From NCBI GenBank assembly GCA_963745075.1, contig CAVUWV010000014.1, forward strand, positions 160,001 to 224,000: DNA of 64,000 nt. Direction: 5' to 3'. Under the pieces are notes generated by a model. It had not been told where the DNA came from. It ran no database searches and saw nothing but the letters and a program-made list of their open reading frames with translations. A program made the position numbers and the translations under genes. Each line of letters opens with the position of its first letter. The first letter of the stretch is position 1. Below, piece by piece: positions 7,901 through 19,913 of this stretch. This DNA comes from Candidatus Hydrogenedentota bacterium. Its GTDB lineage: Bacteria; Hydrogenedentota; Hydrogenedentia; Hydrogenedentales; SLHB01.

Positions 7901-8000
7901 CAATATGATTCTCCGTCGCGCGGTACCGATCCGCACCCGCACTCCATGCCAGTCTTGGCTCCCGATGACCTCGATACCCCGCCAGAGGCTAACCATTGTT

Positions 8001-8017
8001 TGTTAGAACAGTATTAG
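8001..8017 (-). promoter_or_regulatory. Pho-box-like direct repeat upstream of the barrel gene
   Basis: Minus strand CTAATA-N5-CTAACA, 11-bp period. Confidence 0.55.
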
Positions 8018-8207: not shown

Positions 8208-8894
8208 ATGGCACGCGAAAGTATTTTGGTCGTGGACGACGAGGAGGACATCCTCGAGCTGGTTAACTATAACCTGGCGAAGGCGGGGTACAAGGTCACT
8301 TGCGTAGCGACGGGAGGCGAGGCGGTGAAGTCCGCGCGCCAGGTGATCCCCGACCTCGTCGTGCTGGACCTTATGCTGCCGGGTCTCGACGGCCTCGAAG
8401 TGTGCACGCTGCTCAAGAACGACCCCAAGACCAGCGATGCGGCCATCATCATGCTCACGGCCCGCGGCGAAGAAGCCGACGTGGTCCGGGGGTTGGAATT
8501 AGGCGCGGACGACTACATTACGAAACCCTTCAGCCCGCGAATTCTATTGGCCCGGATCCGGGCGGTATTGCGCCGTCGCGAGACGGAAGCGATGGAAAAA
8601 TCGTCCGTCCTGCGCGTGCACGATCTTGTAATTCATCCCGGGCGCCATGAACTACTTGTCCAAGGCAAGCCCATCGATCTAACCTACACCGAGTTCCGGG
8701 TGCTCTATTGCCTGGCGCGCCGGCCCGGTTGGGTGTTTACCCGTTCGCAGATCGTGGATATGGTGCGCGGCGCCGGCTATGCGGTAACCGACCGGGCGGT
8801 CGACGTTCAGATCGTAGGGCTCCGGAAGAAGCTCGGCGAACGGGGGAGCTATATCGAAACGGTGCGCGGCGTCGGCTACCGCATGAAGGAGTAA
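8208..8894 (+). CDS. phoB: Phosphate regulon response regulator (OmpR/PhoB family)
   Basis: Receiver (VVDDE, LDLMLP, KPF) plus winged-helix IETVRGVGY; adjacent to phoR and pst genes. Confidence 0.9.
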   Translation: MARESILVVDDEEDILELVNYNLAKAGYKVTCVATGGEAVKSARQVIPDLVVLDLMLPGLDGLEVCTLLKNDPKTSDAAIIMLTARGEEADVVRGLELGADDYITKPFSPRILLARIRAVLRRRETEAMEKSSVLRVHDLVIHPGRHELLVQGKPIDLTYTEFRVLYCLARRPGWVFTRSQIVDMVRGAGYAVTDRAVDVQIVGLRKKLGERGSYIETVRGVGYRMKE

Positions 8895-8900
8895 GTATTC

Positions 8901-10709
8901 TTGCCTCGTAAGCGGCTCATCTGGCAGCTCTTCCCGCTGTTTGTCCTGGTGGCCGCCGGTTCCCTGGTCTTGGCGGCCTTCTATGCAACGCACACCATGA
9001 CCCGTATCTACCAGGCGCAGCGAAATGCCGACCTTGAAGCCCGCGCACGGCTTATCGCACCCATCGTTCGAAAGGCGCTGCAAACCGGTTCGACCGAAGA
9101 CCTGGAGCCGCTTTGTAAACGGCTTAGCGAAGCTGCGTCTGCCCGTGTCACCGTCATACTGCCATCCGGCAAGGTCCTCGCGGACTCGGACCATGATGTC
9201 GAGACCATGGACAATCACGCCGACCGCCCGGAAGTCGTGGAAGCGCTGCGTGGGGAGGTCGGCGGGTCGACGCGTTATAGCCATACGCTGCGGACCGACC
9301 TGAGTTACGTGGCCATGCCCATCCACAGGGACGGCGCCATTACGGGCATCGTGCGCATCGCCGTACCGGAACCCAGCATCGGCTCGGCAGTGCGGACCAT
9401 CTCGATGGAAGTGGCTACCGGAATTGGGCTCGTCGTGCTGGTAGTCACCGCGCTGAGCCTCATCGCCACGCGCTCGGTAACCCGGCCCGTAGAACTCCTG
9501 CGGCGCGGCGCGGAACGCTTTGCCAAAGGCGATCTGGAGGCCCGGCTCGCCATACCGAATACGGCCGAACTCGGGCTCCTCGCCAACACCATGAACACTA
9601 TGGCAACCCAACTCGAGGACCGTATCCATGCCGTTGAACGTCAACGCAACGAGTTGCAGGCCGTTCTGTCAAGCATGGTCGAGGGCGTCGTCGCCTTCGA
9701 CAGCAACGAGCGGGTGATTAGCGTGAACCAGGCGGCGGCCGACATCTTCACGATCTCGCGCGAGCACGCACTGGGTCGCGTCATCCACGAGGTCTTTCGA
9801 GACGTCGACCTCCAGCGTTTTGTTGCGTCTATCCTGGAAACCGGAGAGGCCCAGCTCGGCAGCATCGTGCTGGAACACCGCGGAGAAGAGCATCTGCGTT
9901 TGCAGGGGGCAGCGCTCCACGATGCCCAGGGAAACCGCATCGGCGGGCTTGTCGTGCTGCATGACATCACACGCCTTCATCGGTTGGAGGCCGCCCGCCG
10001 CGATTTCGTCTCCAACGTCTCCCACGAACTCAAGACCCCCATAACGGCAATTAAAGGGTATGTCGAAACCCTCCAGGACGGCGCCTTGGAGGAGCCTGAT
10101 GCAGCCCACAAATTCTTGGGGATCATCGAAAGGCAAGCCGATCGACTTTCCGCCCTGATCGAAGACCTGCTCCGGTTGAGCCGCTTGGAACAGAATGCGG
10201 AGGATGAGCGGCTGCCCTTGGAAGAAGGATCGGTTCGCGATGTGCTTGAACGGGCCATTCAAACCTGTGAGCCTGCCGCGTCCACCAAGAATATGGATGT
10301 GCAACTCCGGTGCGACGGCGCGCTGGTCGTTCGCATGAACGCTCCGCTCTTGCAGTTAGCCGTCGAGAACCTTCTTGAAAACGCCATTAAATACAGCGAT
10401 GACGGCAAGCAAGTCCTTGTGGAAGCGACGCGGGAGAACGCCGCGGTCGTGATATCCGTTTCCGACCATGGTTGCGGAATCGAACAGGAGCACCTGCCCC
10501 GCATTTTCGAACGCTTCTATCGCGTGGACAAGGCCCGAAGCCGCAAACTCGGCGGGACCGGGCTCGGACTCGCCATCGTGAAGCACATTGTCCGCGTCCA
10601 CGACGGGCAGGTTAGCGTAGACAGCACACCACGCAAGGGCAGTACGTTTCGTGTTCAGTTGCCCGCCGGTCCCGACTTCGACCGTCGTTTCTCCCCGCCC
10701 ACTGCGTAA
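8901..10709 (+). CDS. phoR: Phosphate regulon sensor histidine kinase (TM-HAMP-PAS-HisKA-HATPase)
   Basis: DFVSNVSHELKTP, NAIKYS, FERFYRVDKARSR..GGTGLGLAIVKH. Confidence 0.92.
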   Translation: MPRKRLIWQLFPLFVLVAAGSLVLAAFYATHTMTRIYQAQRNADLEARARLIAPIVRKALQTGSTEDLEPLCKRLSEAASARVTVILPSGKVLADSDHDVETMDNHADRPEVVEALRGEVGGSTRYSHTLRTDLSYVAMPIHRDGAITGIVRIAVPEPSIGSAVRTISMEVATGIGLVVLVVTALSLIATRSVTRPVELLRRGAERFAKGDLEARLAIPNTAELGLLANTMNTMATQLEDRIHAVERQRNELQAVLSSMVEGVVAFDSNERVISVNQAAADIFTISREHALGRVIHEVFRDVDLQRFVASILETGEAQLGSIVLEHRGEEHLRLQGAALHDAQGNRIGGLVVLHDITRLHRLEAARRDFVSNVSHELKTPITAIKGYVETLQDGALEEPDAAHKFLGIIERQADRLSALIEDLLRLSRLEQNAEDERLPLEEGSVRDVLERAIQTCEPAASTKNMDVQLRCDGALVVRMNAPLLQLAVENLLENAIKYSDDGKQVLVEATRENAAVVISVSDHGCGIEQEHLPRIFERFYRVDKARSRKLGGTGLGLAIVKHIVRVHDGQVSVDSTPRKGSTFRVQLPAGPDFDRRFSPPTA

Positions 10710-10727
10710 CCCCGGAAGATCGAGCGG

Positions 10728-10744
10728 CTAACACGTTCCTAACA
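10728..10744 (+). promoter_or_regulatory. Pho-box-like direct repeat upstream of pstS
   Basis: CTAACA-N5-CTAACA, exact repeat, 11-bp period. Confidence 0.65.
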
Positions 10745-10817
10745 ACCGCCACATAAACTAGGAACGCAGGATTTGGCGATCCGGTCAATCCATTCAAACG
10801 ATGCGGAAGGGATCACC

Positions 10818-11702
10818 ATGAAGGTCACCGGTATACGTACAACTATCGCAATGCCAACGCTCCTTATCGCCACGTTGCTGGTGTCGGCCTGCGGACCCCG
10901 CGGTAGTCAAGGCGGGGCTGGTGGTTCAGATAACGCGATCACGATCAAGGGTTCCGACACCATGCTTCACCTCGTGACCGCCTGGGCCGATGGTTTTATG
11001 AAGAAACGCCCGGAAACGGCGGTATCCGTCACAGGCGGCGGTTCCGGGACTGGCATCGCGGCGCTATTGAACGGCACCACCAACATTTGTGCCTCCTCCC
11101 GCGATGTCAAGCCGGAAGAAAAGCAGATGGCGGAACAGAAGGGGATGCACCTCGTTATTACCCCCGTCGCGCGCGACGCGATTACCGTAGTTGTCAATTC
11201 CAAGAATCCTGTGAGCGAGTTGACACTTGAACAACTCAAGAAGATCTTTACCGGAGCCTACAAAACCTGGGACAAGGTCGGCGGGCCCGCCGAACCCATC
11301 GTTGTCCTTTCCCGCGAATCCAGTTCCGGCACGTACGCGTTTTTTCTCGAACATGTGTTGAAAAAGGAAGATTACACCCAGGATGCCCTGTTACTCCCAG
11401 CCACATCCGCCGTGATTCAGAGTGTGACCGATTCACCCTGGGCCATCGGCTACGTTGGTCTCGGTTATGCAGAAGACGCGGGCGACGCGGTCAAGATGAT
11501 TTCCGTGAAGACCGATGATGCTTCGCCTGCCGTCGCGCCGTCTACCGAGTCGGTGCTCTCCGGGGAATACTCGATCGCGCGTCCACTGAATCTGGTGACC
11601 GGCAGCGAGCCGATGGGGACGATCAAGGACTTTATTGATTACAGCCTGTCCCCGGACGGGCAGACGATCGTGGCCGACACGGGGTACGTAAAGGTCAAGT
11701 GA
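10818..11702 (+). CDS. pstS: Phosphate ABC transporter substrate-binding lipoprotein
   Basis: Lipobox LVSAC; KGSDT, GGGSGTG, SRESSSGTY. Confidence 0.93.
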   Translation: MKVTGIRTTIAMPTLLIATLLVSACGPRGSQGGAGGSDNAITIKGSDTMLHLVTAWADGFMKKRPETAVSVTGGGSGTGIAALLNGTTNICASSRDVKPEEKQMAEQKGMHLVITPVARDAITVVVNSKNPVSELTLEQLKKIFTGAYKTWDKVGGPAEPIVVLSRESSSGTYAFFLEHVLKKEDYTQDALLLPATSAVIQSVTDSPWAIGYVGLGYAEDAGDAVKMISVKTDDASPAVAPSTESVLSGEYSIARPLNLVTGSEPMGTIKDFIDYSLSPDGQTIVADTGYVKVK

Positions 11703-12578
11703 GTGGTGCTGCGAGACTGGAAAGAACGGATTATCGGGCGTATTCTGCTGGCCTGCGCCTCGACGAGTATTCTCATCGTGGTGCTGATCTTCCTTTTCCT
11801 CTTCCGCGAGGCGGCTTCCTTCGTGCGCGATCCGGGGTTGAGCGCGTTACTGGCAACGAAATGGGTTCCCGCCTCGTTCCAGGATGTCTCTTTCGGATTG
11901 CTGCCCTTGGTGACCGGTTCCTTACTGGTCACATCGATCGCTACCGTCCTGGCCATTCCATTCGGCGTGTGCGGCGCCGTCTACATCGCGGAGATCGCCG
12001 GACCTCGTGAACGCGAAGTCCTCAAGCCTTTTATCGAACTCGTCGCGGGAATCCCATCCGTTGTACTCGGTTTCTTCGGGCTGGTCGTCGTTGCCCCGTC
12101 GGTCAAGACGGTCTTCGGTCTCGACAGCGGGCTAACCGCATTGACCGGCGGGCTGCTCTTGGCGCTGATGGCCGTGCCCACGATCATCACCATTTCCGAA
12201 GACGCTATTCGCAGCGTTCCCCGCGCCTACAAGGAGGCATCCCTGGCGCTCGGGGCCAACCGGGTCCAAACCATTTTCAAAGTGGTCGTGCCGGCCGCAC
12301 TGTCGGGGATCATCGCCAGCATCATGTTGGGCATGGGCCGCGTCATCGGCGAGACGATGGCCGTGATCATGGTCACCGGCAACGCGGCCAAGGTCACCTT
12401 GTCGCCATTCTCATCCGTGCGAACTATGACCGCCACCATCGCCGCGGAGATGGGGGAGGTCGTCTTCGGCAGTCCGCACTATGCTGCACTTTTTTGGGTC
12501 GGCATTGTCCTTCTGGTCGCGACGTTCATTCTCAACGTCATCGCCATGCGCGTGTTGAAGAAGTATCAGAGGGCCTGA
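11703..12578 (+). CDS. pstC: Phosphate ABC transporter permease
   Basis: [26 protein letters not shown]. Confidence 0.93.
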   Translation: MVLRDWKERIIGRILLACASTSILIVVLIFLFLFREAASFVRDPGLSALLATKWVPASFQDVSFGLLPLVTGSLLVTSIATVLAIPFGVCGAVYIAEIAGPREREVLKPFIELVAGIPSVVLGFFGLVVVAPSVKTVFGLDSGLTALTGGLLLALMAVPTIITISEDAIRSVPRAYKEASLALGANRVQTIFKVVVPAALSGIIASIMLGMGRVIGETMAVIMVTGNAAKVTLSPFSSVRTMTATIAAEMGEVVFGSPHYAALFWVGIVLLVATFILNVIAMRVLKKYQRA

Positions 12579-13426
12579 TGACGACGTCGCCGTCCGAAAG
12601 AATGGTGATCTGGATCGTGCGGGCAATCACCTATTTCATGGTGCTCGTCGTGGGGTATATCCTGCTCGATATCATCATAAAGGGCATGGGCGTCGTGAAT
12701 TGGACCTTCCTCACGACGGCTCCCACGGTGGATGGGCGCGGCGGCGTGTTTCCCGCGCTGATCGGAACCTTATGTCTGGTCACGGGAACGATCGCCGTGG
12801 CGCTTCCGCTCGGGATGGCCAGCGCAATCTATCTGACGGAGTACGCTCGCCAGGGACGATTCACCGGAATGATACGCCTCGCCATCGTTACCCTGGCCGG
12901 CGTGCCGTCGATTGTGTTCGGCTTGTTCGGCCTTGGCCTCTTCGTTCTATTCCTTAATTTCGGCACCAGCATCATCGCGGGAAGTCTCACTTTGGCGTGC
13001 ATGATTCTTCCCACCATCATTGTATCCAGCGAGGAAGCCCTCCGGGCCGTCCCGCAGGCATTGCGCGAAGCCAGTCTCGCGCTGGGAGCGACAAAATGGG
13101 AAACGATCCGCAAGAACGTGCTACCGTACGCCATTCCCGGGATGCTCACGGGGAGTATACTTGGAGTCGGTCGCGCGGCAGGCGAGACGGCGCCGATTCT
13201 GTTGACGGTCGCGGCGTTCTATCTGCCCCGGCTGCCGCACTCCATATTCGACCAGGTAATGGCACTTCCATATCACCTGTACGTCCTGTCGACCCAGTAC
13301 ACGGACCCGAAAGTCGTCCGCCCCACGCAATACGGAACGGCGCTCGTACTGCTGATGCTGGTCCTGGGACTGAACATAGGCGCGATCGCACTTCGGATAC
13401 ATTTCAGAAAGCGGTACCGATGGTAG
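12578..13426 (+). CDS. pstA: Phosphate ABC transporter permease
   Basis: [27 protein letters not shown] coupling with pstC. Confidence 0.93.
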
Positions 13427-14214
13427 AAGCAGGCACAGCATACGTCAGCGCGAAACAACTCAAACCCAAGGTTTCCGTCACCGGCCTGAATTTCTACTAC
13501 GGCCCGACGCAGGCACTTTTCGACATCACCATGGACATCCCCGATCGTCAGGTTACCGCCCTGATTGGCCCGTCCGGCTGTGGGAAATCGACTTTCCTGC
13601 GTACGCTGAACCGGATGAACGAAATCATCGGGGACACGCGTCTCGAGGGCAAGGTCACGATAGACGGACAGGACATCTACCGCAACGGGATGGATGTCGT
13701 TTCCCTCCGCAAACGGGTCGGCATGGTCTTTCAGAAGTCGAACCCCTTTCCCAAATCAATCTTCGAGAACGTCGTCTACGGCCCCCGGATTCACGGCGTG
13801 AGAGACCGGTCCGAACTGGCGAGAATTGCCGAGCAGAGTCTCATTCGCGCGGGCCTTTGGGAGGAAGTCAAGGATCGCCTCACCAAGAGCGCCATGGACC
13901 TCTCGGGCGGCCAGCAACAACGGCTCTGCATTGCCCGGGCGTTGGCTGTCGACCCGGAGATTCTGCTGATGGATGAGCCGGCCTCCGCCCTCGACCCCAA
14001 AGCAACGGCTCGAATCGAGGACTTGATTGGTGAGTTGCGCGACGAGTACACAATCGTTATCGTGACGCACAACATGCAGCAGGCGGCCCGCGTCTCCGAT
14101 CGCACCGCGTTCTTTTTTGAAGGCAGTTTGATCGAGTTCGGCGAAACCCAGGTGATGTTCACCAATCCCGCTGAACACAAGACCGAAGAGTACATTACGG
14201 GCCGCTTCGGTTGA
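13420..14214 (+). CDS. pstB: Phosphate ABC transporter ATP-binding protein
   Basis: [30 protein letters not shown]. Confidence 0.95.
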
Positions 14215-14230
14215 GAGGCGGGAACGTCTA

Positions 14231-14938
14231 TTGTCCATCCACATGCAGCGCGAAACCCAACGCCTGAAGAAGAATATCCTGTCTCTCAGCGCCATGGTCG
14301 AGCAGAGCGTGGCGAAGGCCGTCCGCGCCCTACGCGAACGCGACCAGGAACTCGCCCGCCAAGTCATCGCGGCGGACATCGAAATCGACGAGCTTGAGGT
14401 CGACATCGAAGAGGAATGTCAGAAGATCCTGGCGCTCCATCAACCCGTTGCGCATGACTTACGCTACATCATCGCGGTGCTCAAGATTAACGCCGAATTG
14501 GAGCGCATTGGCGATGCAAGTGTGAACATCGCCGAACGGGCCGTCGTCCTCAGCGAAACCGCTCGCGTCGATATTCCGTTCAACTTCACCGGGATGGCGG
14601 AAAAGGCTAGGGCCATGCTTCAGCACAGCATCGACGCCCTCGTCAATCAGGATCCGCAATTGGCCTACACGGTCATCGCTGCCGATGACGAAATCGACGC
14701 CATCAACCGGGAAATGTACGACCAGGTCAAAGACGGGATACGCAACCATCCGGACCAACTGGAAGCGTTGATTCACCTCCTAAGTGTGTCCCGCCACCTG
14801 GAACGGATCGGCGATCACGCCTCCAACATCGCCGAAGATGTCATCTATCTGACCAAGGGCGACATCGTCCGCCACAAGACGGAAGAGTACTTGTCGAAGG
14901 TTCAGGAGCCTGAGAACGAAGACGCACCGTCTGCGTGA
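14231..14938 (+). CDS. phoU: Phosphate signalling complex protein
   Basis: Two PhoU repeats with LERIGD; QPVAHDLR. Confidence 0.95.
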   Translation: MSIHMQRETQRLKKNILSLSAMVEQSVAKAVRALRERDQELARQVIAADIEIDELEVDIEEECQKILALHQPVAHDLRYIIAVLKINAELERIGDASVNIAERAVVLSETARVDIPFNFTGMAEKARAMLQHSIDALVNQDPQLAYTVIAADDEIDAINREMYDQVKDGIRNHPDQLEALIHLLSVSRHLERIGDHASNIAEDVIYLTKGDIVRHKTEEYLSKVQEPENEDAPSA

Positions 14939-14946
14939 CCCTCGCG

Positions 14947-16191
14947 TTAACCGGCGATGATCGAAACGCCTTTGTAGATCACCATACACAGAATCGCCAC
15001 AAAGGGAACTGTGATCAGCCACGACGCGAACACCGATTTAAGCGTTCGCGTGTCCACCGCCGTCAACCCGCGAGCGAGTCCCACGCCGATGATCGCGCCG
15101 ACGAGCGTGTGCGTCGTCGAGATCGGGAGCCCCATGCGCGAGCAAGCCAGCACCGTCATTGTTGCGCCGATATCCGCCGCCACGCCACGCGACGGCGTAA
15201 TCTCCGTAATCTTGGTGCCGATGGTTCGCATGACGCGGTACCCGTACGTCGCCAACCCCGTAACAATCCCCGCGCCACCCAGCGCAAGGACCCACGGCGA
15301 CACACCGACTTTCAGTGCGACCGTGTTGGTCCGTACAATATCGACCACGCCCGCCAGGGGGCCCACGGCGTTGGCCACGTCATTCGCGCCGTGCGCGAAC
15401 GCGACGGAACAGGATGTAATGACGACCAGAATGGCGAATACACCCTCGACTTTCCGGAGCTGAATCCCGATGTCCGCTTCGCTGTTTCCGTGCCATACTC
15501 GGCGCACGGCGTAGTACGAAACCACGGCTGCCACCAAGCCGATGACGGCGCTGACAGCGCTGGCTTGAATCACGTTCAGGTTGAGGCTCAGGTTGGATAG
15601 ACCCTTGTAAATCGTTGACAACGACACAATCCAGAACGTCGCGAACACACATAGGGGCACGCCGTTCAGCGCGGCCTTGAGCGGTTGCGGGCGGGCCAGA
15701 ATGAACGTTGATATCAAACGAAATATCACGTATCCCAGGACCCCCCCGACAACCGGTGAAATGAACCAACTGGCGACGATTCGGACCAGGGTCCCCCAGT
15801 GAATTTCCCCGACGCCCGCCTCGAGAATCCCAAACCCCGTGATTGCTCCGACAATGCTATGGGTGGTCGAGACCGGCATTCCCCAAAACGACGCCACGTG
15901 GAGCCACACGGCAGCCGCCACGAGCGCGCATACGAGCCCCAATGCCAGCGTCTTTGGTTCGCCCACAAAAACCGTGGTGTCGATGATTCCTTTACGAATC
16001 GTGTCGGTGACGTGGCTGCCAACCAGGAAGGCCCCCGCAAACTCGCAGATCGACGCGAGGATCACCGCCCCCGCGATGCCGACGGCGCCCGATCCGACGG
16101 CATCCGCCATCGAGTTCGCGACGTTGTTCGCCCCTATCGTCCAAGCCATGTAGAATCCAAATATAATGGCCGCTATTAACAGGATTTCCAT
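14947..16191 (-). CDS. pit: Inorganic phosphate transporter, PiT family
   Basis: GANNVANS and HGANDVANA signatures, PVSTTH/PISTTH. Confidence 0.93.
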   Translation of the reverse strand: MEILLIAAIIFGFYMAWTIGANNVANSMADAVGSGAVGIAGAVILASICEFAGAFLVGSHVTDTIRKGIIDTTVFVGEPKTLALGLVCALVAAAVWLHVASFWGMPVSTTHSIVGAITGFGILEAGVGEIHWGTLVRIVASWFISPVVGGVLGYVIFRLISTFILARPQPLKAALNGVPLCVFATFWIVSLSTIYKGLSNLSLNLNVIQASAVSAVIGLVAAVVSYYAVRRVWHGNSEADIGIQLRKVEGVFAILVVITSCSVAFAHGANDVANAVGPLAGVVDIVRTNTVALKVGVSPWVLALGGAGIVTGLATYGYRVMRTIGTKITEITPSRGVAADIGATMTVLACSRMGLPISTTHTLVGAIIGVGLARGLTAVDTRTLKSVFASWLITVPFVAILCMVIYKGVSIIAG

Positions 16192-16225
16192 GAGGAACCC
16201 ACCTACTCCTTCCGCACGAGGAACG

Positions 16226-16903
16226 CTACTTGCGACTTCCGATGATTTGACGAAGATACTTGGCGGTCTTCTCTGCACTGTTCGCAATGGAACTCAGCGT
16301 ATGACAGTACTTGTCGAGGAACATCAAAGTGATTGGATCGATTTCACCCTCCATGTCGTACGCGCGCGTCGAGAATACCCGCTGTAACTTGTCCGCTTTC
16401 CACTCCTCCTGGCCGATTTCTTCGATGTTCTCGAAGAATTTCTTCGCTTCTTGGCCCACAAACGCGGATTCCGCCAGGACCGAAAGCTCTTCGCAAAGAT
16501 TGAGCAAGTGTTCGCTGACTCGGACGACCTGCTCGACAAAGGCTAGAAAGTCCTCTTGCAGCGCTTCCGGCATGCGGGTTCTTCGGATGCGCAACACCAC
16601 GGCGAAGTCCTCCGCCGCGTCCGCTACGTTGTCCTGGTAGGTGAGGAACTTCAGGAACTCGTAGCGGCCGACCGAGAGCATGTATACGGAGGACATGGCC
16701 TCGCGAACGTTCGCTTTGATCTGGTCCGCTTCGTACTCCGTTTGTGACATCTCGTGGTGCAGTTTCTTGATGCCTTCATAGTCTTCCTTGAGCAGTGCCT
16801 CCGCCAGAGGGCGTAACAACAGCACGCACGAGTGGACTTTCCGCGTGTGTTCCAAGACCAGGCTGAATGGAGAGCGACCGAAAAATCGCTGAATCATGCC
16901 CAT
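16226..16903 (-). CDS. DUF47 / TIGR00153 Pit accessory (PhoU-like) protein
   Basis: FGRSPF, EYEAD..K, QDNVAD.AED; directly upstream of pit; AAGGAGG RBS. Confidence 0.88.
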   Translation of the reverse strand: MGMIQRFFGRSPFSLVLEHTRKVHSCVLLLRPLAEALLKEDYEGIKKLHHEMSQTEYEADQIKANVREAMSSVYMLSVGRYEFLKFLTYQDNVADAAEDFAVVLRIRRTRMPEALQEDFLAFVEQVVRVSEHLLNLCEELSVLAESAFVGQEAKKFFENIEEIGQEEWKADKLQRVFSTRAYDMEGEIDPITLMFLDKYCHTLSSIANSAEKTAKYLRQIIGSRK

Positions 16904-17232: not shown

Positions 17233-18438
17233 CTACGATCCGTTTGCGCCGCTGGGGATGATGGGGAGTCCGCCCGGCGGAACCCCGGGGATAGGCGTTC
17301 GCTCCTGGATCGGCACGAGGGGCGGTGCGGGTGCCGTTACCTCTTGCGTTTGATTGCCGAAGGTGTCGTCGTACCATTCCAGCCAGCGCTCGCGCTGCAA
17401 TCCGTGCGGCATACCGGTAATCACTTCCAAGGCTTCGATCGCGGGCTGTACGAATCCGGAACGCGCCCGTACCAGCCCGATGAGAAAGTGGACAGTCGAC
17501 ACGTCCCCCGCCAGGCCCAAATCGCGAATCACCTCGCGTTTCACCCGGCGATCCGGATCTCCGTTGGGCGATGCGGCGTCGGTCAATAATCCCAGGGCTT
17601 CCGGTCCTCCGATGCGGGCGATGGCATAGTACGCGGGAACTCGAACGTTCGGATCGGTATGCCGGACCATGTTTATCAGGGTCGGCAACGCACCCGGATC
17701 GTCGATCGCGGCAATCGCGTTCGCGGCGTACACCGACAACACGGGGTCATCCCCCCAAACCTTTTCCGCCAGAGGTTCCACGGCCCGCCGGCTGCCGATT
17801 CGGCCAAGACCGTAAGCGACCGCTACCCGTTCGTCGCGGGTGGTGTCCGGCGCGTCCAGCATTTGTAGCATTCCGGGCTCGAGCACCGACCGCAATGACG
17901 GCAGCACGTCATTGACCGCTGCAACGACCGGTGCTTGCCCCCAAGCCAGGACCGCCGTTACTGCATCTGTCACGGCCTTCGGATCCACGTGGTAGAGCGT
18001 TTCCAGTGCACGCTCCCGAACCTCCTCGTTCGGGTCCGCGAGACTGGCGATCGCGAATGGCACGAATTCCGCATTTCCAGAACCAGCCAGACCTTCCAAT
18101 GCGCGCATTCGAGATTGCGGATCGTCGGACAGCGCCATCGCTGCGAGGGGACTTTGCGCCATTTCCCGGGATAACGTCAATGGACGCCAGAGGAGCCGAT
18201 CGCGCCGACGCGCGGCCTGTGCCATGTCATCGTTGTCGGTGTTTTCGGACGGCGGCGCCTCGTTGACGTGCGGCGCAGCGGCGATCTCATCTCCCCACGC
18301 CGGGGCAATGACAAATGGAATCCATTTGATTCCCATGACACCCGCCAGCGAAAGCGCACAAGTGATAATAAGAAGTCGGACACTGAACACTTCTGTCTCC
18401 TCGCCAAAACCGTACTTCGTTGGAAGGATTCTCCTCAA
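17233..18438 (-). CDS. HEAT-repeat protein with N-terminal hydrophobic segment (start uncertain)
   Basis: Repeated DP...VR..A..ALG motifs; W.EWY tail. Confidence 0.75.
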   Translation of the reverse strand: MRRILPTKYGFGEETEVFSVRLLIITCALSLAGVMGIKWIPFVIAPAWGDEIAAAPHVNEAPPSENTDNDDMAQAARRRDRLLWRPLTLSREMAQSPLAAMALSDDPQSRMRALEGLAGSGNAEFVPFAIASLADPNEEVRERALETLYHVDPKAVTDAVTAVLAWGQAPVVAAVNDVLPSLRSVLEPGMLQMLDAPDTTRDERVAVAYGLGRIGSRRAVEPLAEKVWGDDPVLSVYAANAIAAIDDPGALPTLINMVRHTDPNVRVPAYYAIARIGGPEALGLLTDAASPNGDPDRRVKREVIRDLGLAGDVSTVHFLIGLVRARSGFVQPAIEALEVITGMPHGLQRERWLEWYDDTFGNQTQEVTAPAPPLVPIQERTPIPGVPPGGLPIIPSGANGS

Positions 18439-18497
18439 ATACTCCGAGGCAAGTCAATGTCGTTTTCCATTTTTCCCGAGGGCCGGAATAAACCATA

Positions 18498-18513
18498 TGG
18501 CGGGTATGTTGCT
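18498..18513 (+). promoter_or_regulatory. Sigma54 (-24/-12) promoter
   Basis: TGGC-GGGTATG-TTGCT: GG/GC spacing matches TGGCACG-N4-TTGCW; predicted +1 near 18524. Confidence 0.6.
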
Positions 18514-18523
18514 TTCAACGTCT

Positions 18524-18642
18524 ACAAGGGGGAGTCCTTCCCCCAGGCTGCCCCTTGCAGGCGCAGTCAGAAATGACTGGTTCCCACCATCGGCGAGTGC
18601 GTCATGGCAGTTCCCCCGCTGCCCGCACTCGCCTCTTTTTTT
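18524..18642 (+). ncRNA. Candidate ~120-nt small RNA with three hairpins and C-rich loops
   Basis: SL1 18525-18557 (loop CUUCCCCCA), SL2 CAGUCA-GAAA-UGACUG, SL3 18592-18633 (loop UUCCCCCG) followed by U-tract; begins at predicted sigma54 +1. Confidence 0.65.
18592..18642 (+). terminator. Rho-independent terminator of candidate sRNA
   Basis: GGCGAGTGCG...CGCACTCGCC 10-bp stem then TCTTTTTTT. Confidence 0.75.
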
Positions 18643-18727
18643 ATCTGCCGTGGGATTATTCCCGAAAATTCGCTTATTTCCATTTGGAGAGGTGTAAATT
18701 GCTGGAATATAATCGCTTAGGCAGGTA

Positions 18728-18756
18728 TTGACTTTCTAGTTTCAAATGATTATACT
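18728..18756 (+). promoter_or_regulatory. Sigma70 promoter
   Basis: TTGACT-N17-TATACT in AT-rich context. Confidence 0.75.
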
Positions 18757-18935
18757 TACGCGACGAGCGGCTGATGCCCACTCGCATGAACACACCGTCT
18801 TATCGGGCACGATACCTCGCACCACCGGGGCATAATTTCTCGCCAAGCCGCCCATAACGGGGTCGGCACAGGTCCTGACAGTGGTGTCGATTGGTTAAAT
18901 GCAGTGGAAGGGCGTGCCCCTACTAGGAGATTGTA

Positions 18936-19913
18936 ATGGCTCTACGATTGTCTACCGCACTTGATGTGTTTTCGGGATCGCCGGACCGGTATTGTCCGCA
19001 AGGCTACCGGGATCCGCTGCGTATCCAAGAGCGCCTGTCGATTGCGTCTAAGATCAAGGGAATTAAGGCTGTAGAGATTGCGCAGAGCGACATCTCGCCG
19101 GAGTTTCCGGTCAAAGAGCTTAAGCGGTTGCTCAAAGATCAGTCCTTGGCCTGTTCCGGCGTGTCGGCCAATCTGGCCCAAGATCGCAGATATGCGCTGG
19201 GTGCCTTTGGTCACCAACACCCGAAAACCCGGAATGCTGCGATCGACGAAGGCCGGAAGGCCGTGGATATTGCTCGCCAGGTCGGAGCCACCGAAATCAC
19301 CCTCAAGCTGTTCAGCGACGGGTTCGACTACCCATTCCACATCGACTACACAACCCATTGGAATACACTGATTTCGTCGATCAAGACCATTGCGAAATAC
19401 GCTTCACCGGACATTAACGTCGCCATCGCATACAAGTGCCGCGAGCCGCGCAAATTCCTTACGGTTGCCACCGTTGGGAAAGCGCTCTCGCTTTGCCAGG
19501 AAATCGCGATGAAGAACGTTGGCGTGGCGCTGAACTTCTCCCATGCCATGATGGCCGGTGAGAATCCTGCCGAGTCCATTGCGTTCTTGACCCGATCCAA
19601 CAAGCTCTTTCAGGTGTATTTCAGCGATAATTATCGGCTGTGGGACGATATGATGCTACCCGGAAGCGTGCACACGTGGGAACTCATGGAGGCCCTGTTC
19701 TACCTCCGATCGAGCAAATTCAAGGGCTATTGCACCATCGACATGATGCCGCAGCGCATCGATCCCGCGCAGGCCTGTCAGATCGCCATCGGCAACTTGT
19801 CCATCTTTTGGAAGAAACTGGACAAACTGGACAATACGGAGCTTCGCAAAGCGCAAAAGACGCTCGACGCCGTCGAAAGCCAGAAGATTATCCGCCGCGT
19901 CATGCTTCAGTAA
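18936..19913 (+). CDS. Xylose-isomerase-like TIM-barrel protein with degenerate active site
   Basis: DGFDYPF, YK.REPR, HAMMAGENPAES, DNYR.WDD motifs; AGGAGA RBS. Confidence 0.85.
   Translation: MALRLSTALDVFSGSPDRYCPQGYRDPLRIQERLSIASKIKGIKAVEIAQSDISPEFPVKELKRLLKDQSLACSGVSANLAQDRRYALGAFGHQHPKTRNAAIDEGRKAVDIARQVGATEITLKLFSDGFDYPFHIDYTTHWNTLISSIKTIAKYASPDINVAIAYKCREPRKFLTVATVGKALSLCQEIAMKNVGVALNFSHAMMAGENPAESIAFLTRSNKLFQVYFSDNYRLWDDMMLPGSVHTWELMEALFYLRSSKFKGYCTIDMMPQRIDPAQACQIAIGNLSIFWKKLDKLDNTELRKAQKTLDAVESQKIIRRVMLQ

What the first reader, a model, noticed from the sequence alone, without database searches (positions are those of the whole stretch)
18498..18642. Candidate sigma54-dependent small RNA with repeated UUCCCCC loops
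Seen: TGGC-N7-TTGCT at 18498-18513 puts +1 near 18524, exactly where a structured unit begins. SL1 is CAAGGGG/CCCCUUG with loop CUUCCCCCA. SL2 is a perfect 6-bp stem with a GAAA tetraloop, followed by a linker UUCCCACC. SL3 is a 10+5-bp stem with loop UUCCCCCG and a U7 tract. No credible ORF with an RBS lies inside. The 5' GGGGGA can alternatively pair with the first C-loop, which could act as a switch. Known: sigma54 sRNAs exist (Vibrio Qrr, Myxococcus Pxr), and C-rich-loop sRNAs (6C RNA, cuckoo RNAs) pair with G-rich ribosome-binding regions. Inference: a trans-acting anti-SD regulator that I cannot assign to a known family. Several leaders in this window carry GGGGAA or GGGGGAG (methyltransferase, hom, GH28) and are possible targets.
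Basis: partly seen in the sequence, partly recalled or inferred. Interest (0 to 1): 0.8.

Follow-up and report, generated by a model that had tools for sequence, protein, structure and literature searches.

The report
Thiol-stress small RNA of Hydrogenedentota
This is a real, uncatalogued small regulatory RNA gene found across an uncultured bacterial phylum; it is probably switched on with the cell's thiol-repair genes rather than by sigma54, and it most likely acts on messenger RNAs through three exposed C-rich patches.

Summary
The RNA is real; the sigma54 reading is not. 18520-18642 folds into three hairpins plus a U tract (z -7.0), has no Rfam match, and occurs, mostly once, in 88 of 135 Hydrogenedentota genomes, with compensatory stem changes and near-invariant unpaired C-rich motifs. 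The sigma54 box is in 1 of 63 homologous loci (this one); a SigR/SigH-type promoter, GGAAT-N18/19-GTT, overlaps it and is in 51 of 63 and in 9 further divergent homologues. The same promoter precedes bacilliredoxin in 16 of 18 genomes, thioredoxin in 12 of 30, and thiol peroxidase, cysK and sufB here. A SigH-like sigma factor is core to the phylum. Best reading: a trans-acting, LhrC/RoxS-like base-pairing sRNA forming the RNA arm of a thiol-stress regulon. The 'switch' is not conserved; the proposed targets are unremarkable. Lead: the sigma factor's own leader holds the complementary G-run in 27 of 63 RNA-bearing genomes, 1 of 20 others. No expression data. The scan found this RNA before on other DNA (e1-719840).

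The parts
18485..18490 (+). -35 element GGAATA of a SigR/SigH-type (ECF) promoter
   Evidence: With the -10 at 18/19 spacing in 51 of 63 loci, shuffled mean 0.2, maximum 3; in 6 of 6 divergent model hits and 3 homologues found by position
18508..18510 (+). -10 element GTT (usually TGTT); start of transcription inferred near 18517-18520
   Evidence: SigR consensus GGAAT-N18-19-GTT from a passage of PMC9205884; the start itself is inferred, not measured
18498..18513 (+). sigma54-like box; judged a chance overlap
   Evidence: 1 of 63 loci; window count within chance
18520..18642 (+). small non-coding RNA gene, about 123 nt
   Evidence: z -6.98; covariance model hit in 88 of 135 phylum genomes; one copy in this genome
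18520..18562 (+). SL1: stem variable in sequence, loop motif UUCCCCCA (18538-18545)
   Evidence: 6 of 6 inner pairs counted show changes on both sides, 81.7% of cells paired; loop unpaired (p>0.8) in 63 of 64
18564..18579 (+). SL2: near-invariant 6-bp hairpin with a mostly GNRA tetraloop; absent in the divergent homologues of genus g50
   Evidence: (5 of 6 pairs never vary, so covariation says nothing here; the set was selected on this sequence)
18580..18591 (+). single-stranded linker with UUCCCACCA (18581-18589); a UCCC core survives here in the most divergent homologues
   Evidence: invariant columns; unpaired p>0.8 in 40 of 64
18592..18633 (+). SL3: terminator-type hairpin, loop motif UUCCCCCG (18611-18618)
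   Evidence: upper stem 3 of 5 pairs with changes on both sides, 100% paired; lower stem invariant in the main set but changed and still paired in g50
18636..18642 (+). U tract of the inferred intrinsic terminator
   Evidence: the simple terminator scan did not list it, its stem carries a bulge
17233..18390 (-). divergent HEAT-repeat gene (start uncertain, longest frame to 18438); neighbour, not part of the RNA
   Evidence: Pfam HEAT_2; same family upstream in 33 of 65 loci
18728..18756 (+). sigma70-type promoter TTGACT-17-TATACT of the downstream gene
   Evidence: similar boxes read by eye in the relatives printed (output partly cut)
18936..19913 (+). xylose-isomerase-like TIM-barrel gene, the constant downstream neighbour
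   Evidence: Pfam AP_endonuc_2; downstream on the same strand in 61 of 65 loci; in 125 of 135 genomes

Best explanation
A stand-alone ~120-nt small RNA of Hydrogenedentota, transcribed from a SigR/SigH-type promoter together with the phylum's thiol-redox repair genes and ended by its own terminator. The stems hold three C-rich patches open; these pair through G-C seeds with G-rich stretches of mRNA leaders, without Hfq or ProQ, and change translation or stability of those mRNAs: the RNA arm of a thiol-stress regulon. Shown: the gene, its conservation, its fold by covariation, the conserved promoter motif and that motif's link to redox genes. Inferred: transcription, which sigma factor reads the promoter, the inducing stress, base-pairing as the mechanism, and every target. 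The leader of the SigH-like sigma gene itself is the best target lead, which would close a feedback loop.
For: Structure: (95.5% of cells paired against 88.9% shuffled; 129 cells changed on both sides against 40.5; slid controls 25-41% paired). Range: 88 of 135 genomes, 87 of them at E below 1e-17. Promoter: 51 of 63 loci, then 9 loci not used to derive it. Regulon: GGAAT-N18-GTT lies before 42 genes here against 17-27 at seven other spacings, among them thioredoxin (twice), thiol peroxidase, cysK, bacilliredoxin, SufB and sulfite reductase, each over the NCBIfam cut-off; bacilliredoxin 16 of 18 genomes at N18/19 and 0 at eight other spacings; thioredoxin 12 of 30, other spacings 0-1. One clear SigH-like factor (163.6 bits, next 104.7) in 126 of 135 genomes. 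Same layout as LhrC, whose UCCC motifs sit in two loops and the linker (PMC4132741, passages). Hfq, ProQ and Jag_N not found in this 90%-complete genome.
Against: No expression evidence of any kind. Nine loci of family f3 and three others lack the promoter pattern although f3 keeps it at bacilliredoxin. The SigH-like factor scores below the family cut-off (251.55), has no zinc anti-sigma motif within 900 nt downstream in 30 of 30 loci and no own-type promoter within 170 nt upstream in 30 of 30, so its link to the promoter is by likeness only. It is present in families f11 and f13 where the canonical RNA was not found. No mRNA stands out in this genome: 131 of 5335 genes carry a matching G-run near the start, and the sigma leader ranks only 367 of 5314. 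The invariant SL2 and lower SL3 stems are not explained by loop pairing.
Confidence: 0.6

Rival explanations
1. Same gene and promoter, but the RNA is a protein decoy or scaffold: the repeated C-rich patches and invariant helices bind a protein, possibly the product of the neighbouring xylose-isomerase-like gene, which looks catalytically degenerate.
For: Three similar motifs in loops and linker; invariant SL2 and lower SL3 stems; neighbour kept in 61 of 65 loci; a Glu of the related solved chain 3ktc_A is replaced by Ala, Ser or Thr in all 50 loci where the motif was read; no clear mRNA target.
Against: The neighbour is core to the phylum (125 of 135), also in f13 and most of f11 where no RNA was found at that place; it has its own promoter; nothing found suggests that it binds RNA; C-rich loop RNAs studied so far pair with RNA.
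Confidence: 0.22
2. The RNA is the 5' part of the leader (attenuator or riboswitch) of the downstream gene.
For: Same strand and fixed neighbour in 61 of 65 loci; ends in a terminator-type hairpin.
Against: About 230-740 nt of unconserved DNA (1298 in one locus) and a separate sigma70-type promoter lie between; no conserved alternative fold; some copies lie away from the gene or in tandem; the gene's leader shows no general complementarity (6 of 61 against 2.8 shuffled).
Confidence: 0.07
3. One reading: a sigma54-dependent sRNA like Qrr or Pxr.
For: The box is there; rpoN and 34 matches to the activator domain are in the genome.
Against: 1 of 63 loci, none of the three other distinct same-genus loci; within chance in the window; overlapped by the conserved ECF-type promoter.
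Confidence: 0.04
4. A divergent housekeeping RNA or a small coding gene.
For: Mostly single copy and very conserved; an AUG lies in SL2.
Against: 6S, SRP RNA and tmRNA are found elsewhere in the genome; the conserved stretch varies by 1-4 nt (69 to 73), which breaks any frame; the AUG is paired, has no ribosome-binding site and is missing in some homologues.
Confidence: 0.02

Closest known systems
LhrC1-5 of Listeria monocytogenes (PMC4132741; passages read)
   Same: About 110-120 nt; three UCCC-type motifs in the first loop, the single-stranded linker and the terminator loop; stress-linked promoter; Hfq not needed for action.
   Different: No Rfam match; LhrC is multicopy and LisRK-dependent, this RNA is mostly single copy with an ECF-type promoter and an extra tetraloop hairpin; different phylum.
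RoxS/RsaE, FsrA, CsfG of Bacillota (PMC8216469; passages read)
   Same: Several C-rich regions used for pairing; RoxS is tied to redox state.
   Different: Controlled by ResDE and Rex (RoxS), Fur or sporulation sigmas; no Rfam match here.
6C RNA of Actinomycetota (PMC6486639; abstract and outline read)
   Same: C-rich loops pair with mRNAs without a chaperone in a GC-rich genome.
   Different: No Rfam match; here three hairpins, a C-rich linker and a terminator.
sigmaE-dependent MicA, RybB, MicL (PMC8103513; passages read)
   Same: The idea of an sRNA arm that gives an ECF regulon a repressing function.
   Different: Envelope stress and Hfq dependence (the latter recalled); here a thiol-redox regulon and no Hfq found.
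SigR of Streptomyces / SigH of mycobacteria (PMC9205884; passages read)
   Same: Promoter GGAAT-N18-19-GTT; thioredoxin-system genes in the regulon.
   Different: The Hydrogenedentota factor is below the SigH_actino cut-off and no adjacent zinc anti-sigma or autoregulatory promoter was found; the adjacent anti-sigma of SigR/SigH is recalled knowledge.
Pxr of Myxococcus (PMC5684412; passages read)
   Same: Three stem-loops; a conserved lower stem of SL3, needed in Pxr for accumulation.
   Different: Pxr has a predicted sigma54 promoter and an adjacent NtrC-like activator; neither is conserved here; no Rfam match.

Membership tests
Any Rfam 15 family (6C, LhrC, RsaE, cuckoo, Pxr, Qrr) | Reaches the family's covariance-model score | tested here: not met
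   No match over the RNA at E up to 10; none over the RNA in 8 homologous loci at E up to 1
sigma54-dependent sRNA (Qrr, Pxr type) | Conserved -24/-12 box at fixed distance | tested here: not met
   1 of 63 loci
sigma54-dependent sRNA (Qrr, Pxr type) | rpoN and activators in the genome | tested here: met
   necessary, not sufficient
C-rich trans-acting sRNA (LhrC/RoxS/6C kind) | Several conserved unpaired UCCC-type motifs on a stable scaffold | tested here: met
C-rich trans-acting sRNA (LhrC/RoxS/6C kind) | Own promoter and terminator, non-coding | tested here: met
   By sequence only:
C-rich trans-acting sRNA (LhrC/RoxS/6C kind) | Pairs with G-rich mRNA sites and regulates them | tested here: inconclusive
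   One comparative lead; no standout in the single-genome scans
C-rich trans-acting sRNA (LhrC/RoxS/6C kind) | Expressed as a discrete RNA | not testable with these tools
   No RNA holder listed
SigR/SigH regulon member | GGAAT-N18-19-GTT promoter shared with thiol-redox genes | tested here: met
SigR/SigH regulon member | Cognate factor is a SigH_actino family member with an adjacent zinc anti-sigma and autoregulation | tested here: not met
   163.6 bits against 251.55; no HxxxCxxC motif downstream and no own-type promoter in 30 loci; it works like SigR by promoter and regulon, membership not shown
SigR/SigH regulon member | Induced by thiol-oxidising stress through that factor | not testable with these tools
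   needs transcription data
Housekeeping RNA (6S, SRP, tmRNA) | Is the genome's copy of that RNA | tested here: not met
   Each found at another place

The most novel reading that the evidence does not exclude
The RNA is the feedback control of a phylum-wide SigR-like thiol-stress system that has no adjacent anti-sigma factor: the sigma factor makes the RNA, and the RNA pairs with a G-run in the leader of the sigma factor's own mRNA, so an RNA does part of the job that a zinc anti-sigma protein does in Actinomycetota; the degenerate TIM-barrel neighbour may be its protein partner.
Probability: 0.25. Interest if true: 0.8.

Novelty: new variant of a known kind. Interest (0 to 1): 0.6.

Why it matters
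It adds a phylum-wide regulatory RNA family, with its promoter and probable regulon, in a phylum for which my literature searches listed no paper on small RNAs or sigma factors. It suggests that the three-patch C-rich design of LhrC, RoxS and 6C arose again in a distant lineage, and that a SigR-type thiol-stress regulon can carry an sRNA arm as sigmaE regulons do. All parts are short and can be tested in vitro or in a laboratory host. The sigma54 angle that raised the first score falls away.

Tried and rejected
Expression: no RNA holder listed; no reads were laid. Rfam: nothing. Viral contigs: 0 exact matches to a 24-letter core pattern. Paralogues in this genome: none. Records titled Nitrospirota, Rhodothermota or Bathyarchaeota among the 55 pattern hits nest among Hydrogenedentota on a quick, unfinished tree of the neighbour protein (49 of 55 loci), so I take them as mis-titled, not as spread to other phyla. 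Switch: rejected. feoA as target: a G-rich site in 4 of the 8 relatives where the gene was seen beside the DtxR-like gene, three of them from one genus; not general. Leaders of the neighbour gene, trxA, the DtxR-like gene and bacilliredoxin: no excess of the motif. Long complements to the core: nothing beyond chance-looking hits; a 12-15 nt match 70 nt before a hemL-like gene (named by eye) was not followed up. Weak model hits in L277 (opposite strand) and a motif in L300 were not accepted as homologues. A candidate promoter site on contig C36 lies inside a gene. Atlas search of the neighbour returned only AP_endonuc_2 clusters. Second look-up of earlier findings by words: nothing.

Full report
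Observation. 18520-18645 folds into three hairpins at -62.3 kcal/mol, z -6.98, with 0 of 200 shuffles as stable. It lies between a divergent HEAT-repeat gene and a xylose-isomerase-like gene. Rfam 15 has no match over it at E up to 10, nor over the RNA in 8 homologous loci.

Range. A DNA search found matches in 48 of 61 genomes, a core pattern in 75 of 135 genomes of the phylum with 0 for the reversed control, and a covariance model built from 64 sequences in 88 of 135, 87 strong and 1 weak, mostly single copy: f1 48/53, f3 12/14, f5 11/15, f10 6/6, f8 4/4, f11 1/23, f13 0/10. A scan of one genome per species for an exact 34-letter pattern gave 55 loci, most titled Hydrogenedentota; those with other titles nest among them on a quick tree of the neighbour protein (49 of 55 loci). 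That scan finds only near-identical cores, so distant relatives in other phyla are not excluded. No viral match. Fetching the DNA upstream of the neighbour gene, or around weaker hits, in 40 loci showed three divergent homologues in f11 genus g50 that lack SL2; none was accepted at that place in f13 or the other f11 genera.

Structure. On the 64-sequence alignment 95.5% of cells pair (88.9% shuffled), 129 cells change on both sides (40.5 shuffled), and slid controls pair 25-41%. All 6 counted inner SL1 pairs and 3 of 5 upper SL3 pairs covary; SL2 and the lower SL3 stem barely vary, partly because I selected on that sequence, so they are supported by energy and by the g50 homologues, whose lower SL3 stem has changed and still pairs. 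The outer SL1 stem was poorly aligned and not counted; single folds show it. Loop 1 and loop 3 motifs are unpaired in 63 of 64 sequences, the linker in 40 of 64. The conserved stretch varies from 69 to 73 nt, which rules against coding. 6S, SRP RNA and tmRNA lie elsewhere.

Promoter. rpoN and activators exist, but TGGC-N7-TTGC is upstream in 1 of 63 loci with enough flank (2 of 65 dropped for short flanks), this one; the window holds 2 such sites against 0.94 by chance. Instead G[GA]AAT[AT]-N17/18-GTT is in 51 of 63 (shuffled mean 0.2). That pattern was derived from these loci, so the tests that count are held out: 6 of 6 divergent model hits and the 3 g50 homologues carry it. Of the 12 loci without it 9 belong to f3. 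It equals the SigR consensus GGAAT-N18-19-GTT (PMC9205884, passage). With my own rough gene calls, intergenic GGAAT-N18-GTT precedes 42 genes here (three are copies of one insertion element, thioredoxin counts twice) against 17, 21, 27, 26, 20, 18, 24 at spacings 15, 16, 17, 19, 20, 21, 22. I picked 19 of the 68 entries at spacing 18 or 19 by eye for a family scan: thioredoxin, thiol peroxidase, CysK, BrxA/B bacilliredoxin, SufB, sulfite reductase, IspH and an AhpD domain pass NCBIfam cut-offs; McsA, Hsp20, superoxide dismutase, HtrA, photolyase, an RpoS/RpoD-like sigma, MntR, a dioxygenase and an Hsp70-like protein match below cut-off; two have no family. The control lists were only read by eye; they showed no such set. 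The unbiased checks are in relatives: bacilliredoxin, found in 18 of 30 genomes, has the motif within 300 nt in 16 of 18 at spacing 18/19 and 0 at eight other spacings; thioredoxin in 12 of 30, other spacings 0-1; the DtxR-like gene in only 4 of 30. One ECF factor stands out against the SigH_actino model (163.6 bits, next 104.7, cut-off 251.55) and is in 126 of 135 genomes. It has no zinc anti-sigma motif downstream and no own-type promoter in 30 loci, 1 such promoter in 60 more. That it reads this promoter is inference.

Context. The xylose-isomerase-like gene follows on the same strand in 61 of 65 loci, beyond unconserved DNA and its own sigma70-type promoter, so the RNA is not its leader. 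The gene is in 125 of 135 genomes, also where no RNA was found, and looks catalytically degenerate.

Targets. The 16S tail is ordinary. G-runs matching the loops lie near the start of 131 of 5335 called genes; an accessibility-corrected scan ranks GH28 474, hom 733, the methyltransferase 763, feoA 65 and the SigH-like gene 367 of 5314. One genome cannot decide. Of five orthologue sets tested in relatives only the sigma gene stood out: motif in 22 of 30 leaders against 4.5 shuffled, while the neighbour gene gave 6 of 61 (2.8), trxA 2 of 30 (2.6), the DtxR-like gene 3 of 30 (2.4) and bacilliredoxin 1 of 18. In a wider set the effect was weaker: 13 of 40 RNA-bearing genomes (6.6 expected) and 1 of 20 others (2.3). 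Pooled, GGGGGA lies within 110 nt of the start in 27 of 63 RNA-bearing genomes (about 13.5 of 38 genera), in 3 of 63 in a window further upstream, in 0 of 6 f3 and 1 of 20 genomes without the canonical RNA, against 6.8% of all genes here; G001 was left out because its RNA locus was not assembled. Where a -10 box could be placed (38 of 69 RNA-bearing loci) the motif was inside the leader in 23 and upstream in 0. Against: kin are not independent, positions scatter from -12 to -106, most families of f5 lack it, and in this genus the site is predicted to be paired in cis (opening cost 6-10 kcal/mol). It is a lead, and the sign of any effect is unknown.

Mechanism. Most likely (0.6): stress-induced transcription from the SigR-type promoter and chaperone-free G-C pairing of the three patches with mRNA leaders, as for LhrC (PMC4132741, passages), RoxS (PMC8216469, passages) and 6C (PMC6486639, abstract); Hfq, ProQ and Jag_N were not found in this 90%-complete genome. 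Rivals: protein decoy or scaffold (0.22), leader of the next gene (0.07), sigma54 control (0.04), housekeeping or coding (0.02).

Novelty. Searches for Hydrogenedent* with 'small RNA', 'noncoding RNA' and 'sigma factor' listed 2, 2 and 3 papers, none on this subject by title and abstract start; searches on SigR/SigH with sRNA terms and on sigma feedback listed none that describes such a system by title or abstract start (listings only). The library lacks most subscription papers and I opened no supplements, where catalogues of candidate RNA motifs could hold it. An earlier agent of this scan reported the same RNA in another genome as a C-rich sRNA under a stress sigma factor (e1-719840); I had reached that reading before the look-up, took the LhrC paper from it, and do not count it as evidence. 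Added here: the rejection of sigma54, the thiol-redox regulon, the candidate factor, the divergent homologues and the feedback lead. Verdict: real, a new family of a known kind with an undescribed regulatory setting; interest 0.6.

Noticed in passing
window 18936-19913: The xylose-isomerase-like gene is core to the phylum (125 of 135 genomes, mostly 60-95% identical) yet lacks a Glu present in the related solved chain 3ktc_A in all 50 loci where the motif was read (that this Glu binds metal is recalled): a possible pseudo-enzyme with another job.
   Followed up: partly
window 18757-18935: The downstream gene has a leader of roughly 170-200 nt after a strongly kept sigma70-type promoter; its sequence is conserved within genera but not across families.
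   Followed up: partly
L174:1389-1400 (G000:C28, about 7999-8010): A palindrome GGGAATATTCCY sits in the leader of the SigH-like sigma gene in several f1 genera, sometimes in two or three copies; only 3 places in this genome. It may be an operator, or a -35-like site in both directions.
   Followed up: partly
L174:1474-2097 and L179-L208, L311-L370: The SigH-like sigma gene often seems to start at TTG or GTG with a weak ribosome-binding site, after a conserved extended -10 promoter, which hints at translational control.
   Followed up: partly
L269, L271, L272 (G068, G067, G069): Divergent homologues without SL2 keep the promoter, position, a UCCC linker and a changed but still paired SL3 stem; z -2.4, -4.7, -4.8.
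   Followed up: yes
L032, L042-L045, L048-L050, L052 (family f3): These copies keep the RNA but have lost the ECF-type promoter pattern, though f3 keeps it at bacilliredoxin and thioredoxin: possible rewiring.
   Followed up: partly
L013, L015, L087, L089, L098: In genus g11 the -10 GTT overlaps an extended sigma70-type TGTTATAAT, suggesting a dual promoter.
   Followed up: no
G033:C4:39350-39706 and G128:C309:4005-4366: Two tandem copies of the RNA about 230 nt apart in genus g29; G007, G024, G042 have two and G118 three matches (contamination not excluded).
   Followed up: no
G000, several contigs: About eight genes that look by eye like uroporphyrinogen-decarboxylase/corrinoid methyltransferase family members are among the 131 with GGGGGA-type start sites; enrichment not tested.
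   Followed up: no
window 8208-16903: A phosphate cluster: response regulator and kinase, pstSCAB-phoU-like genes (by eye) and a PHO4 transporter with a DUF47 gene. Ordinary.
   Followed up: no
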